Positions 2,725-30,527 of a stretch of DNA of 64,000 nt are shown here, piece by piece (positions within the stretch are counted from its first letter, which is position 1; every line of letters begins with the position of its first letter). Source of the stretch: a virus. Taxonomy: Duplodnaviria > Caudoviricetes. A program made the translations under genes and the position numbers. The notes under the pieces were generated by a model, which was not told the DNA's origin, made no database searches, and was given only the letters and a program-made list of their open reading frames with translations. Location: IMG/VR virus record IMGVR_UViG_3300001528_000621, positions 64,001-128,000 of that record. The stretch is one strand, 5' to 3'.

Positions 2725-3983
2725 TGAGTAAGATAATTTGTTATATATCAGCTCCAGTTGATTCTTACAGTGGGTACGGACGTAGAGCTCTTGACCTTGT
2801 AGAACAGTTAATGATCATAAAGCCAGATTGGGATATCAGAATTCTTTCTCAGAGATGGGGAGATACCAGAATGGGATATCTTGAAGATCATGAGAAATGG
2901 GAGATCATTAGTAAGCTTGTACCTAACATAACAACAAAGCCAGATGTTTGGATTCAGGTTACAGTTCCGAACGAATTTCAGGCTGTAGGAAGATTTAACA
3001 TAGGCATAACAGCAGCTATAGAGACAACGCTTTGTGACGTAAGCTGGGTTGAGGGATGCAACAGGATGGATCTGGTCTTGACATCATCAGAACACGGAAA
3101 ACATTCTCTCATAGATACAAGATACATAAACAACAATACCGGCCAGGAAATCAAGGTGACAACGCCGGTAGAAGTTCTGTTTGAAGGAATAGATACGGAA
3201 ATCTTCTATAAGAAAGACGTACCGGAAAAGACAGAGGTTTTAGCTGGATTGAAGAATTCCTGGAACTTTATTTGTGTAGGACACTGGCTACAGGGTGTTT
3301 TTGGAGAAGATAGGAAAAATGTTGGATATACTCTAAAAGCGTTTCTAGAAGCATTTAAGGACACCGAAGGGCAGGTGCCGGGAATAATTCTAAAGACCTC
3401 TTCAGCTACAACGTCGTACATGGATCAGGAATCAATTCTCAACAAGATCTATGACATTGTAGAGTCTGTTCAGTATAAGAAGGGTATACCAAACATCTAT
3501 TTGCTTCATGGAGATCTGACAGAAAAGCAAATGAATGACGTTTATAATGATCCTAGAGTAAAGGCTATGGTTCTTTATACAAAAGGAGAAGGTTATGGAC
3601 GACCGTTCGCAGAATTTGCTACTATCGGAAAGCCGGTACTTACATCCGGTTGGTCTGGACACCGAGATTTCTTGGATGAAAAGATGACACCTATGATCGG
3701 TGGAACACTACAGAAGGTACATCCATCAGCTGTACAGCCGCATATGATTTTAGCAGAAGCATCTTGGTTTAAGCCGGATGATTCTCAAGCAGTTGCAGGT
3801 TGTCGAGAAGTATTCAAAAACTATACGTCTTGGTTGAAGAAAGCTGAAAGACAAGGGATGTCTCTATCTGTTATTAAGAACGTAGGAGCTATGGGAGATA
3901 GGCTGAACGATATTCTTACTGAATATGTACCGAAATTTCCAGAAAATGTCCATTTGAATCTACCAGAAGAACTATTAATTTAA
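2724..3983 (+). CDS. GT-B glycosyltransferase (GT4-like)
   Basis: SGYG, RKN, GEGYGRPFAEF, SGHRDF. Confidence 0.85.
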   Translation: MSKIICYISAPVDSYSGYGRRALDLVEQLMIIKPDWDIRILSQRWGDTRMGYLEDHEKWEIISKLVPNITTKPDVWIQVTVPNEFQAVGRFNIGITAAIETTLCDVSWVEGCNRMDLVLTSSEHGKHSLIDTRYINNNTGQEIKVTTPVEVLFEGIDTEIFYKKDVPEKTEVLAGLKNSWNFICVGHWLQGVFGEDRKNVGYTLKAFLEAFKDTEGQVPGIILKTSSATTSYMDQESILNKIYDIVESVQYKKGIPNIYLLHGDLTEKQMNDVYNDPRVKAMVLYTKGEGYGRPFAEFATIGKPVLTSGWSGHRDFLDEKMTPMIGGTLQKVHPSAVQPHMILAEASWFKPDDSQAVAGCREVFKNYTSWLKKAERQGMSLSVIKNVGAMGDRLNDILTEYVPKFPENVHLNLPEELLI

Positions 3984-3987
3984 GGAA

Positions 3988-4470
3988 ATGGAAGAAAAAT
4001 TTAACGAAACAGAACAAGAGGTTGTAAATTCATTTGTATGTTGTCCTCATTGCGGTAGCAGTCTTTGTTATCACCAAGATGAAGGTAATGGAGTAGAGTC
4101 GATGATATGTATGCAGTGTGGCTTTACTACTACAAATCAAATGCTAGAAGGTTCTGAAACAGAGAAAGCAGTAACAGCCAAGCATCCAACTCTTTACAAG
4201 GACCTTAAATTTAAGGATGTTCATGGTTTTATTTGGTACCCATCTGTAATAACAATACCGGGGGTAGGAATGGTTTACATCGACGGTTCATCTTCGGAGA
4301 ACTGGGAATGGACTTCAACGCCGATGAGGTCTTTGACTAGAAAAGAAAGAAGGTCTGGTAAGTACGGGAAAGAGCAATATATAGCTGTACCTTCTCAAAC
4401 TAAGCATTTCGGTAAAGATGGGTTTGTTCAAGCTCTTAATTCTTTAGGATTTTTTGGATATGAAAATTAG
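3988..4470 (+). CDS. hypothetical protein with N-terminal zinc ribbon
   Basis: CPHC...CMQC; tightly packed in operon. Confidence 0.7.
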   Translation: MEEKFNETEQEVVNSFVCCPHCGSSLCYHQDEGNGVESMICMQCGFTTTNQMLEGSETEKAVTAKHPTLYKDLKFKDVHGFIWYPSVITIPGVGMVYIDGSSSENWEWTSTPMRSLTRKERRSGKYGKEQYIAVPSQTKHFGKDGFVQALNSLGFFGYEN

Positions 4471-5116: not shown

Positions 5117-6293
5117 TATCACAGCAGTTACAGCTTTCTACGGTCAATATGAAATGACCAGAGATTTTCTGTTAGAATTTAAAGAACGGTTTCCTAACAT
5201 AAAACTGGTTGCAGGAATGCTAGGAAACTCTTCTGAATTTCAGCAGAAAATTATGGATGAGTTCGGAAAGGAATCTCAGTTTACTTTTGTCACTGGAAAG
5301 AGAGACAAGAGAGTGTCTTTCTCAAAAAACTGGGATTCAGCTATAAACGAGGTACAAACAGAGCTTTTTGTGTTCATCCACAACGATATGTACATTCACC
5401 GGGATTTCTTTAAAGTCCTAGAAGAAAGACTTTATCGTCTTGGACCTAAAGCATTTACTCTCTACACAACGGTGGAACCTTTAGAAGTTGGAGGAATGCC
5501 TCGACCTGGAAAGCTCTTAGCCCCTTTTGGTCAAATAAGAGAAGAATTTAAGGAAGAAAAGTTTAATGCTTTTGCTGAAAAAGCTATAAAGCAGGGAGAC
5601 ATAGAAAGCCCTGGATACGGATTCTATTTAGCAGGGTATCTTAAATCTCTACAAGACACAGGAGGCTTCGATTACAAGACCTTCAATCCAGCTTTCTGTG
5701 AAGATGATGACCTCATACTTCGAATCAAGACTAGAGGGTACGGTATCGTTCTATCAAGGCAAGCTCTTGTGTATCATTTTGGATCTAAATCTAGCAGAAA
5801 GAAGGCAGGAGATCAGATGTCAGATAGTGAGATAGAATCTAATAGGAGGTTTGCTGCTAAGTGGGGAATGGAAGCTAGATACCTGTGGGAATGTGGGTAT
5901 GAAAGTGAAGACCAGATCTCGATAGGAGTAGAGACAGTGGTGTTCAGAGCAGAAGATTTTTTGACAGAATGGGAAGCTTACTGTATTGAACCTCTAATCG
6001 ATTGCTTTATGCAACTACCTTCTACATTCAAGTCAGAAACTTTTACTTACTTTTTAGAGAGAGGTAAGATTAATAGTGAATTTGCACCAGATATCGAAAT
6101 AGAACAAGTAGGTCCGTCTGACATTAATAATCTCCTATACCTTTTTGGTCATCTCAGGTATGGACATAAAAACTTAAAAGTAGGAAGTAAGGCCCAGATA
6201 GGACCCTACATAGTTACAATTCACAGTTTACGGGAACAAGATAGAGTAGACAATACAGACTATTTATCTTTGCTTAAATCTAAGGAGTTATGA
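5106..6293 (+). CDS. GT-A glycosyltransferase (GT2)
   Basis: FIHND, GGFD, EDDDL..R, VYHF. Confidence 0.8.
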   Translation: MYSNITAVTAFYGQYEMTRDFLLEFKERFPNIKLVAGMLGNSSEFQQKIMDEFGKESQFTFVTGKRDKRVSFSKNWDSAINEVQTELFVFIHNDMYIHRDFFKVLEERLYRLGPKAFTLYTTVEPLEVGGMPRPGKLLAPFGQIREEFKEEKFNAFAEKAIKQGDIESPGYGFYLAGYLKSLQDTGGFDYKTFNPAFCEDDDLILRIKTRGYGIVLSRQALVYHFGSKSSRKKAGDQMSDSEIESNRRFAAKWGMEARYLWECGYESEDQISIGVETVVFRAEDFLTEWEAYCIEPLIDCFMQLPSTFKSETFTYFLERGKINSEFAPDIEIEQVGPSDINNLLYLFGHLRYGHKNLKVGSKAQIGPYIVTIHSLREQDRVDNTDYLSLLKSKEL

Positions 6294-10252: not shown

Positions 10253-10325
10253 GGACCCGTAGCTCTAATGGTAGAGCGGAGGCCTGAAGAGCCTCGCGTT
10301 GGTGGTTCGAGTCCGCCCGGGTCCA
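10253..10325 (+). tRNA. tRNA-Phe(GAA)
   Basis: GAGGC-CTGAAGA-GCCTC. Confidence 0.95.
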
Positions 10326-10340
10326 CAACTTTAGTAAAAA

Positions 10341-10473
10341 TAAAAGCGAGTTCTTAGTCTTGGTTCGAGTCCAAGCTGCGTCCTTCTCGAAAGGAATTCA
10401 AAAGCTTACAAAAATCAAATGTAGGTGGGGGCGTGGTAGTTTAGTTGTGTAGAGAACTGGGGACAAGTTTTTA
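10341..10473 (+). ncRNA. circularly permuted tRNA-like RNA (Y RNA/YrlA-like topology)
   Basis: long closing stem, then T-arm CTTGG-TTCGAGT-CCAAG, looped acceptor-like helix, then D-like arm. Confidence 0.6.
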
Positions 10474-10486
10474 GGAAAAATGGAAA

Positions 10487-10560
10487 GCACCTGTAGCTGA
10501 ATTGGTAAAGCACCAGCCTTTTAAGTTGTGTGATTGCGAGTTCGATCCTCGCCGGGTGCA
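10487..10560 (+). tRNA. tRNA-Lys(TTT)
   Basis: CAGC-CTTTTAA-GTTG. Confidence 0.85.
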
Positions 10561-10565
10561 CGAAA

Positions 10566-10640
10566 TCCTAGCTCTTGGGAGTTCGACTCTCCTTGCCGGC
10601 TTTCACGCCGATATTTACAGGACCGGTGCCTGTGCTAGGA
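10566..10640 (+). ncRNA. minimal circularly permuted tRNA-like RNA
   Basis: TCCTAGC/GCTAGGA closing stem, T-arm GGAG-TTCGACT-CTCC, capped acceptor-like hairpin, D-like arm ACAGG-ACCGGTG-CCTGT. Confidence 0.65.
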
Positions 10641-10643
10641 CAT

Positions 10644-10715
10644 GTCCGGATCATCTAATAGGTAGGATACTACCCTCTCAAGGTAGAAACCCGAGTTCGA
10701 TCCTCGGTCCGGATA
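10644..10715 (+). tRNA. tRNA-Glu(CTC)
   Basis: CTACC-CTCTCAA-GGTAG. Confidence 0.9.
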
Positions 10716-10719
10716 CAAT

Positions 10720-10795
10720 TTAGTCTTCGTTCAGTTGGTCAAGGACATTTCTTTTACAAAGAAAAGATTTAGCAGTTCGAATCTGCTAGACCCTA
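10720..10795 (+). tRNA. tRNA-Val(TAC), outer acceptor stem mismatched
   Basis: TTTCT-TTTACAA-AGAAA; acceptor TTAGTCT vs AGACCCT. Confidence 0.7.
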
Positions 10796-10800
10796 CAAAA

Positions 10801-10944
10801 GCTTTACTAGAGGTTAAGAGCTAGTCACTGGGGGACAAAAGAATAAGCTACGAAAAGAGTCGTCCGGAGACTCTAACAAGCTAGATCTTTTTTAGAACAG
10901 TGGCCGTAGACCTTTAATTCAACGTATGGTAAGAAAGGTAAAGC
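10801..10944 (+). ncRNA. structured ncRNA, unknown class
   Basis: terminal GCTTTAC/GTAAAGC; GTCACTG/CAGTGGC; AGAGTC/GACTCT hairpin. Confidence 0.5.
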
Positions 10945-10950
10945 TAATTT

Positions 10951-11038
10951 ACCCTGATGGTGAAACTGGTAGCCACCCTGGACTTAGGATCCAGTGCGAA
11001 GTAATAATAGCGTGAGGGTTCGAATCCCTCTCAGGGTA
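10951..11038 (+). tRNA. tRNA-Leu(TAG)
   Basis: CTGGA-CTTAGGA-TCCAG; long variable arm. Confidence 0.95.
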
Positions 11039-12107: not shown

Positions 12108-12184
12108 AGCTCCATAGCTTAGCGGTTAGAGCTCAAGCTAGCATTTCCAAGTCCAGCGACGTAGGTTCGAATCTTACTGGAGCA
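12108..12184 (+). ncRNA. tRNA-like RNA with disrupted anticodon arm
   Basis: acceptor GCTCCA/TGGAGC with canonical D and T arms; anticodon arm does not pair normally. Confidence 0.6.
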
Positions 12185-12202
12185 GCTATTTTATTTTGGT
12201 TA

Positions 12203-12265
12203 GAAGTCATGCATGGATGCAGCCGGCCCAGATGCGCTGGTAGCGGGTTCGATTCCCAACACTTC
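12203..12265 (+). ncRNA. degenerate, miniaturised tRNA-like RNA
   Basis: GAAGT/ACTTC ends, GCCGGC/GCTGGT stem, GGG-TTCGATT-CCC. Confidence 0.45.
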
Positions 12266-12266
12266 G

Positions 12267-12337
12267 GACTCTATAGCTCAGTCAGGGCAGAGCAAGCACA
12301 GTTAGCTATGTCGTAGGTTCGAATCCTACTAGAGTCG
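12267..12337 (+). ncRNA. tRNA-like RNA with shortened anticodon stem
   Basis: perfect acceptor, D and T arms; AGC-ACAGTTA-GCT gives only 3 bp. Confidence 0.65.
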
Positions 12338-12344
12338 CTAAATT

Positions 12345-12416
12345 GGTTCCATAGGTCAACGGTTAGACTAAGTGCCTCTTAAGCATTGGATCCGGATTCG
12401 AATTCCGGTGGGACCA
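12345..12416 (+). tRNA. tRNA-Lys(CTT)
   Basis: AGTGC-CTCTTAA-GCATT. Confidence 0.9.
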
Positions 12417-29804: not shown

Positions 29805-30527
29805 ATGCAGTGGTATAATAAGATTAATACTTGTTTTAGGAGAGATCTAGACAGGGAGTCTAAAACGTATAACCAGATTCTACCGGACGAGGAGCTTACA
29901 ACACCTGAGTTTGAGCTTCTTCGTAAATTGAATGCAAAGTGGGAAGCTACCGAAAAGGTAGATGGGGAATGTACAAGCATTCATCTTAAAGTAGATAACC
30001 TGACTGGGGATTATTGTGTGGAAGTGCACGGCAAGACTGACAAAGCTGTCATGCGACCAGAAGAGGTAAAGCTTTTGACAGAGATCGGAGATGTTGAGAA
30101 GCTCGTAGAAGTATTTACTCAAATTGATGCAGGTGGAAATAGGATTCTACCCGGAGATGAGTGTATTATCTTTGGAGAGACCTACGGAAGAGGTATGCAG
30201 AAGCCTGGTAGCAGATATTGTAGTACAAATCTTAAGTTCATTTGCTTTGATATTAAGATCGGAAACATATGGCTGAAGAGGGACGCTGTTGAGGACATCT
30301 GTAAGAAGCTCAACGTTGATGTAGTTCCATTTGTAGGAGAAATGACACTCAACGAAGCTATTGAGTATGTAAAGAAAGGATTTATGTCAACAGTGTCTGA
30401 AGATCCTACTCTTGAAGCAGAGGGTCTCGTACTTCGAGCTCCTCTTGGTCTTCTTGATAGGATGGGTCGAAGAATTATTACAAAGGTTAAGACGGTAGAT
30501 TTTAGAAAGCTTAAAGAAAATAACTAA
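29805..30527 (+). CDS. RNA ligase (Rnl2-like nucleotidyltransferase)
   Basis: TEKVDG, FGETYG, FDI, EGLVLR, K.K. Confidence 0.8.
   Translation: MQWYNKINTCFRRDLDRESKTYNQILPDEELTTPEFELLRKLNAKWEATEKVDGECTSIHLKVDNLTGDYCVEVHGKTDKAVMRPEEVKLLTEIGDVEKLVEVFTQIDAGGNRILPGDECIIFGETYGRGMQKPGSRYCSTNLKFICFDIKIGNIWLKRDAVEDICKKLNVDVVPFVGEMTLNEAIEYVKKGFMSTVSEDPTLEAEGLVLRAPLGLLDRMGRRIITKVKTVDFRKLKENN

What the first reader, a model, noticed from the sequence alone, without database searches (positions are those of the whole stretch)
10566..10640. Minimal circularly permuted tRNA mimic (T-arm, capped acceptor, D-arm; open at the anticodon position)
Seen: a perfect 7-bp closing stem TCCTAGC/GCTAGGA encloses, in order, a T-arm (GGAG-TTCGACT-CTCC), an acceptor-like hairpin closed by a loop (TGCCGGC-TTTCAC-GCCGATA) and a D-like arm with GG in its loop (ACAGG-ACCGGTG-CCTGT). 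It sits tightly between tRNA-Lys and tRNA-Glu, so their processing would release it. Knowledge: this order is a tRNA opened at the anticodon loop, as in the tRNA-like domain of bacterial YrlA Y RNAs. Inference: an unchargeable, anticodon-less elbow mimic that could act as a decoy for tRNA-targeting defence nucleases or as a protein scaffold.
Basis: partly seen in the sequence, partly recalled or inferred. Interest (0 to 1): 0.8.

Follow-up and report, generated by a model that had tools for sequence, protein, structure and literature searches.

The report
Back-to-front tRNA look-alike in phage
A 75-base stretch between two tRNA genes of an uncultured phage folds like a tRNA cut open at the anticodon and closed at the acceptor end; the design recurs in related phages, but whether this copy works as a decoy RNA or is a rearrangement leftover is undecided.

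Summary
Window 10566-10640 folds as a four-way junction. A perfect 7-bp closing stem encloses a canonical T-arm, a loop-capped acceptor-like helix (6 of 7 pairs) and a D-like hairpin with GG. It fills the gap between tRNA-Lys(UUU) and tRNA-Glu(CUC) of a 31-tRNA array in a complete 188-kb myovirus genome.

The T-arm shows descent from a tRNA. When the two halves are put back in normal order with an artificial anticodon loop, ARAGORN calls the result a tRNA.

[quoted passage not shown] There is no hit to the YrlA model, no Ro60/TROVE, RtcB or DUF7873 gene, and no Ro-binding motif.

Orthologues exist only in two near-identical phages. They differ at four positions, about the background rate, and one change breaks a pair.

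Unrelated sequences with the same topology occur in other phage tRNA arrays. The neighbouring element (10341-10473) shows real covariation.

Best reading, about 40%: a tRNA-processing-released mimic of a tRNA body or nicked tRNA. Main rival, about 33%: a leftover of tandem-tRNA rearrangement.

This scan has already reported the same design on many other genomes.

The parts
10487..10561 (+). tRNA-Lys(UUU), upstream neighbour. Its 3' maturation would define the 5' end of the element. No CCA is encoded.
   Evidence: ARAGORN; Rfam tRNA 61.5 bits
10562..10565 (+). 4-nt 5' spacer GAAA
   Evidence: sequence
10566..10572 (+). Closing stem, 5' strand TCCTAGC. Corresponds to tRNA positions 38-44, the 3' strand of the anticodon stem.
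   Evidence: invariant in three phage variants
10573..10576 (+). Variable-loop-like linker TCTT
10577..10593 (+). T-arm: GGGAG / TTCGACT / CTCCT, with G53-C61 and a canonical T-loop
   Evidence: The only change in relatives is G57 to A, purine to purine.
10594..10613 (+). Acceptor-like hairpin: 3' strand TGCCGGC, 6-nt cap TTTCAC, 5' strand GCCGATA. Six of seven positions pair. It abuts the T stem directly, as in tRNA.
   Evidence: Three of the four substitutions seen in relatives fall here.
10614..10616 (+). Linker TTT (position-8/9-like, U8 kept)
10617..10633 (+). D-like hairpin: 5-bp stem (6 with a flanking U.G) and a 7-nt loop ACCGGTG containing GG
   Evidence: invariant in relatives
10634..10640 (+). 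Closing stem, 3' strand GCTAGGA (tRNA positions 26-32)
10641..10643 (+). 3-nt 3' spacer CAT
10644..10716 (+). tRNA-Glu(CUC), downstream neighbour. RNase P cleavage at its 5' end would define the 3' end of the element.

Best explanation
The element is a tRNA-derived, circularly permuted, anticodon-loop-less cloverleaf.

Proposed working, all inferred:
1. It is transcribed as part of the polycistronic tRNA array.
2. It is released as an RNA of about 80 nt when RNase P cuts at tRNA-Glu and tRNA-Lys is 3'-matured.
3. It then presents a tRNA 'body': the T-loop/D-loop elbow plus a 12-bp acceptor/T minihelix, with no anticodon. This is the same shape as a laboratory 'nicked tRNA' mimic.
4. It most likely binds a protein that recognises tRNA shape, such as a host tRNA-targeting defence or repair factor, or a processing or modifying enzyme. 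It would act as a decoy or scaffold.
5. Its seven-position acceptor-like helix may additionally be opened by RNase P, giving two base-paired 'halves'.

Shown: the fold, its tRNA ancestry, its packing between tRNAs, and recurrence of the design. Inferred: expression, release, elbow formation and any binding partner.
For: Structure and tRNA ancestry:
- The fold and its helices are real.
- The T-arm motif is exclusive to the tRNA array (28 on the + strand, 0 elsewhere).
- Re-ordering the halves around a synthetic anticodon loop gives a tRNA call by ARAGORN.
- U8, a GG-bearing D-loop, a canonical T-loop, and a 7-position acceptor helix directly abutting a 5-bp T stem are all kept.

Age and integrity:
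- All helices are intact, yet neither half resembles any of 136 tRNAs of this phage and its relatives beyond the T-arm. It is therefore not a fresh duplicate.

Transcription context:
- No promoter-like or terminator-like site on the + strand lies between the flanking tRNAs.

Recurrence of the design, with unrelated sequences, in other phage tRNA arrays:
- L016:14963-15038, flush between tRNA-Gly-CCA and tRNA-Cys.
- L035:12146-12233.
- L034:12068-12200.
- L019:~5283-5390.
- With caps of 16 nt or less the strict detector found 3 orphan T-arms of this kind and 0 of 498 control T-arms.

The neighbour is under selection:
- The neighbouring permuted element at 10341-10473 is 91% conserved in phages whose adjacent protein is only about 49% identical. 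It has three doubly compensated pairs and none broken in its closing and acceptor-like stems; one predicted T-stem pair is broken in two sequences.

Precedents in print:
- YrlA RNAs are described as resembling circularly permuted tRNAs with closed acceptor stems (10.1101/312249).
- An engineered permuted tRNA mimics a nicked tRNA and binds RtcR (PMC10159003).
Against: - Orthologues were found only in two near-identical phages. They carry 4 substitutions in 82 nt, about the background rate of 3-4%, whereas most neighbouring tRNAs have 0-1. One substitution breaks a G-C pair in an acceptor-like helix that is already imperfect.
- The syntenic relative L016 has no such element after its tRNA-Lys(UUU).
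- No partner gene was found: no TROVE, RtcB, Rnl1, Tpt1, CCA-adding enzyme or DUF7873.
- The D-arm is non-canonical. A14 and the 15-48 pair are replaced by extra stem pairs, so elbow formation is only plausible.
- There is no expression data.
Confidence: 0.4

Rival explanations
1. Non-functional by-product. A tandem pair of one tRNA gene lost its two outer halves during the rapid, homing-endonuclease-driven turnover of the array. The surviving '3' half - spacer - 5' half' still folds only because both halves came from the same tRNA.
For: - The 6-nt cap (discriminator plus 5 nt) has the length of the ordinary inter-tRNA spacers of this array, which are 3-12 nt.
- The array is interspersed with DUF7487 endonuclease-like genes and differs by replacements and indels even between genomes 96-97% identical.
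- A published case shows the homing endonuclease SegB cutting at the T-loop-coding motif inside tRNA genes and driving tandem amplification (PMC13096335).
- Substitutions accumulate at the background rate and one breaks a pair.
- The element is absent from the syntenic relative L016.
- The YrlA authors note that dimeric tRNAs imitate this layout.
Against: - Two deletions ending exactly at the anticodon stem, leaving only 3-4 nt to each neighbouring tRNA, are an unlikely accident, and the same tight packing recurs in L016.
- No parent tRNA is recognisable, yet 23 of 24 pairs are intact. That is unexpected for an old unselected relic.
- Sibling elements of the same design show covariation.
Confidence: 0.33
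2. A true permuted tRNA gene. After release, the 5'-phosphate and 3'-OH ends are joined, for example by the phage's Rnl2-like ligase, to make an anticodon loop. RNase P and 3' trimming then open the cap, giving a working tRNA.
For: - The phage encodes a stand-alone RNA-ligase domain of the Rnl2 family at window 29805-30527 (PF09414 58 bits; TIGR02307 30.7 bits, far below its 197-bit cut-off).
- The look-alike in L016 ends in CUUAC, which reads like positions 32-36 of a tRNA-Val(UAC) anticodon loop.
- The phage lacks tRNA-Ser(UGA) and has only one CAU tRNA.
Against: - Joining the natural flanks gives an 8-10-nt loop without U33, and ARAGORN rejects it.
- The variable region is short, so it cannot be a bacterial tRNA-Ser.
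- Other members of the class (L035, L034, 10341-10473) replace the anticodon end by a 9-16-bp rod.
- No bulge-helix-bulge motif is present, and bacteria have no splicing endonuclease.
Confidence: 0.05
3. A minimal Y RNA that works with a Ro60/Rsr protein supplied by the host, or with a phage Ro-shaped protein too divergent for the TROVE model.
For: - The module order is the same as in YrlA.
- Other agents of this scan report Ro-shaped proteins beside such RNAs in phage tRNA clusters (untested here).
Against: - No YrlA model hit.
- No TROVE gene in the complete genome.
- The terminal stem is only 7 bp, with no G-N-CGAA-type motif.
- The T and D stem sequences differ from the conserved YrlA ones shown.
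Confidence: 0.07
4. A cis-acting spacer. The folded module only keeps the neighbouring tRNAs apart and correctly folded, so that RNase P and 3' processing work efficiently in a tightly packed precursor.
For: - It folds independently inside the three-unit precursor.
- Many other gaps of this array also hold structured spacers.
Against: - Many tRNAs in the same array are processed with spacers of only 3-12 nt, so a 75-nt tRNA-shaped spacer is not needed.
- A plain hairpin would do the job; keeping a T-loop and a GG loop is unexplained.
Confidence: 0.08

Closest known systems
YrlA (Y RNA-like A, Rfam RF02553), tRNA-like domain; S. Typhimurium structure and M. smegmatis form (PMC4201824; bioRxiv 10.1101/312249)
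   Same: - Same order of modules: variable region, T-arm, loop-closed acceptor stem, D-arm, and an 'anticodon' stem made by the 5' and 3' ends.
- Canonical T-loop and GG D-loop.
- Seven acceptor positions, as in the M. smegmatis form that RNase P opens.
- A proposed origin from dimeric tRNA precursors.
   Different: - No score against the family model.
- No Ro60 gene and no Ro-binding helix.
- About 75 nt against about 114 model positions.
- T and D stem sequences are not the conserved YrlA ones.
- Embedded as a unit inside a phage tRNA array and bounded by tRNA processing sites rather than by its own promoter and terminator.
Circularly permuted tRNA genes of Cyanidioschyzon merolae, other algae and Thermofilum (PMC3978253)
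   Same: The 3' half is encoded upstream of the 5' half, the acceptor ends are joined by a short linker, and the termini pair as the anticodon stem.
   Different: - No bulge-helix-bulge motif.
- No complete anticodon loop can be rebuilt from the flanks.
- Bacterial/phage setting without a splicing endonuclease.
Engineered circularly permuted 'nicked tRNA' mimic (PMC10159003)
   Same: Identical design: the acceptor end is closed by a small loop and the RNA begins and ends at the anticodon end. In vitro it is a ligand for RtcR and a substrate for RtcB.
   Different: [quoted passage not shown]
- The natural element would carry 5'-phosphate and 3'-OH ends after RNase P/Z-type processing.
Partner-less and DUF7873-linked permuted tRNA mimics reported earlier by this scan (for example e1-3263978, e1-3598349)
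   Same: Capped acceptor, T-arm and D-arm on a terminal stem, in phages, often inside tRNA clusters. The relative L019 carries one just downstream of a DUF7873 gene.
   Different: The present element has a single head, is much shorter, and its genome has no DUF7873.

Membership tests
YrlA / bacterial Y RNA (RF02553) | Score at or above the family's gathering threshold (69 bits) | tested here: not met
   No match over 10300-10960 at E<=10. A whole-genome search puts the best hit (24.9 bits) on a dimeric tRNA junction at window 12287-12398, not on this element.
YrlA / bacterial Y RNA (RF02553) | Module order T-arm, closed acceptor stem-loop, D-arm, with a terminal stem made by the two ends | tested here: met
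   layout as described in PMC4201824 and 10.1101/312249.
YrlA / bacterial Y RNA (RF02553) | A Ro60/Rsr (TROVE) gene adjacent or in the same genome | tested here: not met
   PF05731 finds nothing in the complete 187,848-bp genome, while the controls ring.
YrlA / bacterial Y RNA (RF02553) | A Ro-binding helix with the conserved G-N-CGAA-(N)-G motif in the terminal stem | tested here: not met
   The terminal stem is a plain 7-bp helix. The only CGAA (10561-10564) lies outside it and lacks the flanking G residues.
YrlA / bacterial Y RNA (RF02553) | tRNA tertiary-interaction nucleotides (U8-A14, R15-Y48, G18G19 with the T-loop) | tested here: inconclusive
   U8, GG and the TTCGA T-loop are present. 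A14 and position 15 are taken up by two extra D-stem pairs. No 3-D test was possible.
Circularly permuted tRNA gene | The 3' half lies upstream of the 5' half, and both halves are complementary in the acceptor and anticodon stems | tested here: met
   ARAGORN calls a tRNA after re-ordering the halves around a synthetic loop.
Circularly permuted tRNA gene | Joining the termini rebuilds a normal 7-nt anticodon loop with U33 | tested here: not met
   The natural flanks CAT plus (C)GAAA give no tRNA call.
Circularly permuted tRNA gene | A bulge-helix-bulge motif at the termini and a splicing endonuclease | tested here: not met
   Only 3-4 nt separate the stem from the neighbouring tRNAs, leaving no room for the motif. 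That bacteria lack the enzyme is established knowledge.
Canonical tRNA (RF00005) | Detected as a tRNA in its native order | tested here: not met
   Not reported by ARAGORN or by the Rfam tRNA model at E<=10.
DUF7873-associated two-headed tRNA-mimic RNA (class described only in this scan) | A DUF7873 gene next to the RNA | tested here: not met
   PF25283 finds nothing in the genome at E<=1. tblastn with the L019 DUF7873 protein finds nothing.

The most novel reading that the evidence does not exclude
Phages with large tRNA arrays carry a Ro-independent family of genes for 'pre-cut', anticodon-less tRNA bodies. These are released by the host's own tRNA processing. They would act as product or shape mimics that blunt tRNA-targeting immunity, or mislead sensors of nicked tRNA. 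This 75-nt element would be the smallest member.
Probability: 0.15. Interest if true: 0.8.

Novelty: new variant of a known kind. Interest (0 to 1): 0.5.

Why it matters
If functional, this would be the smallest natural tRNA-shape mimic. It would work without Ro60, be built into a phage tRNA operon, and be matured by the cell's own tRNA-processing enzymes. That would link phage tRNA arrays to decoy strategies against tRNA-cleaving or tRNA-sensing host systems, and not only to the supply of replacement tRNAs. If it is a relic, it still documents how permuted tRNA-like RNAs such as Y RNAs can arise from tandem tRNA genes in fast-evolving arrays.

Tried and rejected
Searches for relatives that found nothing:
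- Megablast of 3 kb against cultured phages: no match.
- Distant blastn: only generic tRNA hits.
- Exact or degenerate element patterns in IMG/VR and in JGI metagenomes: none.
- The search for related loci with two neighbouring proteins: none.
- The tail sheath found only four distant or short contigs.

RNA model searches:
- The covariance model R1, built from the two nearly identical copies, recovered only near-identical copies plus one weak hit in L034 (22.7 bits). It did not find the L016 or L035 look-alikes, so homology among class members is not shown.

A motif shared with L034:
- The pattern of T-loop plus CGGC, six bases, GCCG gave 11 IMG/VR hits. Four are ordinary tandem tRNAs and one is a tRNA followed by an uncalled tRNA-like gene. 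Three are G+C-rich YrlA-like elements in contigs with no TROVE match, one of which (G003) is rated complete. One is a further permuted look-alike (L062). One is L034 itself.

Proteins:
- The idea that three array-embedded paralogues are Tpt1/ART enzymes found no support. There is no Pfam or NCBIfam hit, PF01885 is absent, and the AlphaFold model had mean pLDDT 44.8, too poor to search with.

Reading rejected:
- tRNA-Ser(UGA) or tRNA-Met made by joining the ends.

Full report
**Setting**

The window is bases 64001-128000 of a complete IMG/VR virus record: 187,848 bp, direct terminal repeats, about 38% G+C. The genome encodes a tail sheath, baseplate proteins, a portal, a DNA polymerase and an anaerobic ribonucleotide reductase, so it is a large myovirus. 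Its closest cultured relatives share under 40% protein identity in the DNA ligase. ARAGORN finds 31 tRNA genes, all on the + strand, between 10054 and 23374.

**The observation**

RNAfold returns the four-way junction both for the isolated 75 nt (-27 kcal/mol, z = -2.2) and within the three-unit precursor. The acceptor-like helix is the weak arm. Its four G-C pairs form in the minimum-energy fold, and the three lower positions are U-A, G.U and a C.A mismatch. Only short spurious ORFs overlap the element. No promoter-like or terminator-like site on the + strand separates it from its neighbours.

**tRNA ancestry**

- A strict T-arm motif (5-bp stem closed by G-C, loop TTCRANY) occurs 28 times on the + strand of the genome. 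All 28 lie in the array, and there are none on the - strand.
- Four of these T-arms are not in ARAGORN tRNAs: this element, its neighbour at 10359, and two odd tRNA-Ile genes treated elsewhere in this scan.
- Placing the 5' half (10607-10640) before the 3' half (10566-10600), around a synthetic anticodon loop, makes ARAGORN call a tRNA. Using the natural flanks as the loop does not.
- Neither half resembles any of 136 tRNAs of this phage and its relatives beyond the T-arm.
- With the T-arm fixed and the flanks randomised, an arrangement of equal quality arose in 0.44% of 20,000 trials.

**Family tests**

- The literature confirms that the YrlA tRNA-like domain has the order V, T, closed acceptor stem-loop, D, with an 'anticodon' stem formed by the RNA ends. 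[quoted passage not shown] The M. smegmatis form, which has a 7-bp acceptor stem, is opened by RNase P and receives CCA.
- The Rfam YrlA model gives no hit on the element even at E<=10. Its best hit in the genome is a dimeric tRNA junction, a false-positive type the YrlA authors warn about.
- TROVE, RtcB, Rnl1, Tpt1, the CCA-adding enzyme and DUF7873 are all absent from this complete genome.
- The only RNA-repair-type gene is a 240-aa stand-alone domain distantly related to Rnl2, at 29805-30527.

**Relatives**

- Two near-identical phages were found through the upstream protein: L012 (ENA, 189,780-bp contig, 96-97% identical) and L053.
- Together they show four changes in the element: T-loop G57 to A, cap C to T, acceptor C2 to U (which keeps a G.U pair), and acceptor G4 to A (which makes an A.C mismatch). 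The closing stem, T stem and D arm do not change.
- The four-way fold survives in both variants.
- The rate, 3 changes in 75 nt against L012, equals the regional background of 3-4% and exceeds that of most tRNAs. These data neither show nor exclude constraint.
- More distant syntenic phages were reached through the DUF7487 protein that sits in the array. None carries an orthologue at the same place. In L016 the 87-nt gap after tRNA-Lys(UUU) is a plain rod.

**A recurring design**

Scanning the related arrays for T-arms outside called tRNAs turned up the same topology with unrelated sequences.

- L016:14963-15038 is a 76-nt unit flush between the CCA of tRNA-Gly and the first base of tRNA-Cys. 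It has a 6-bp closing stem, a T-arm, a 7-position acceptor helix with a 6-nt cap, the linker UA, a fully canonical D-arm, and a CUUAC tail.
- L035:12146-12233 has a 9-bp closing stem, a perfect 7-bp acceptor helix, a 16-nt cap and a 5-bp D hairpin with loop UUGG (z = -3.1).
- L034:12068-12200 adds an extra hairpin before the T-arm. Its acceptor hairpin and T-loop resemble this element (22.7 bits with model R1).
- L019:~5283-5390 has a 28-nt A-rich cap and lies just downstream of a DUF7873 gene.
- With a strict detector, 9 of 143 distinct orphan T-arms gave a solution, against 5 of 498 T-arms inside ordinary tRNAs (the 'tandem tRNA junction' control). With caps of 16 nt or less the counts are 3 against 0.
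- All four compact members keep a U at the first linker position and GG in the D-like loop.

**The neighbour**

The element at 10341-10473, just upstream of the same tRNA-Lys(UUU), has homologues in L012, L019, L020 and L021. It is again upstream of tRNA-Lys(UUU) in L012, L019 and L020. It is 91% identical across phages whose adjacent protein is about 49% identical. Its outer stem and T stem show doubly compensated pairs, and its 10-bp acceptor-like stem shows six one-sided G.U/Watson-Crick exchanges with none broken. So at least one permuted tRNA-like RNA in this array is clearly under selection.

**Mechanism**

- By established knowledge of bacterial tRNA maturation, RNase P cleavage at G10644 and 3' maturation of tRNA-Lys would release an RNA of about 80 nt with 5'-phosphate and 3'-OH ends.
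- Its shape is that of the laboratory 'circularly permuted nicked tRNA', which binds the RtcR sensor and is sealed by RtcB.
- My preferred reading (about 0.4) is therefore a mimic of a tRNA body or nicked tRNA that occupies a tRNA-shape-recognising protein.
- The main rival (about 0.33) is a relic of a tandem tRNA pair. A homing endonuclease is known to cut tRNA genes at the T-loop motif and to drive tandem amplification, the cap has the length of the local spacers, and the array turns over quickly.
- A permuted tRNA matured by ligation is unlikely for this copy, because the joined flanks give no proper anticodon loop.
- A Y RNA using a host Ro60, or a purely cis-acting spacer, cannot be excluded.

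**Novelty**

I found no paper in the searchable library that describes Ro-independent permuted tRNA mimics inside phage tRNA arrays. The design itself is known from YrlA and from algal permuted tRNA genes. This scan has already reported it on many other genomes.

Noticed in passing
window 10341-10473: A second, larger permuted tRNA-like RNA directly upstream of tRNA-Lys(UUU). It is conserved at 91% in L019, L020 and L021 and lies upstream of tRNA-Lys(UUU) again in L012, L019 and L020. It has compensatory changes in the outer stem, the T stem and a 10-bp acceptor-like stem, and an invariant insert of about 40 nt. No Rfam match.
   Followed up: partly
L016:14963-15038: A 76-nt permuted tRNA-like unit flush between tRNA-Gly-CCA and tRNA-Cys. 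Its 3' tail CUUAC reads like positions 32-36 of a tRNA-Val(UAC) anticodon loop. If the upstream A were included, joining the ends would give CUUACAC. This could be a genuine permuted tRNA gene.
   Followed up: partly
window 29805-30527: A 240-aa stand-alone RNA-ligase nucleotidyltransferase domain, distantly Rnl2-like, with no C-terminal domain and no kinase or phosphatase partner nearby.
   Followed up: partly
L054:~3860-4126 (also L057, L058): Two tandem G+C-rich YrlA-like permuted tRNA modules in IMG/VR phage contigs with no TROVE match, one of which (G003, holding L058) is rated complete. The cap loop varies while the stems are kept. One module scores 28.6 bits with the YrlA model.
   Followed up: partly
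L019:4246-5390 and L020:3511-4638: A DUF7873 gene followed, about 250 nt downstream, by a permuted tRNA-like module with an A-rich cap. This matches the DUF7873-RNA pairing reported elsewhere in this scan.
   Followed up: partly
window 12182-12345 versus L012:12866-12951: Between genomes 96-97% identical, the block holding the odd 'Ala(AGC)' and 'Cys(ACA)' tRNA-like genes is replaced or rearranged, and tRNA-Lys(CUU) differs at 22 of 73 positions. This is a hot spot of array turnover.
   Followed up: no
L014:1502-1709 and L016:10845-10994: tRNA-like genes with a normal acceptor and T-arm but an insertion of about 70 nt in the D/anticodon region. ARAGORN does not call them.
   Followed up: no
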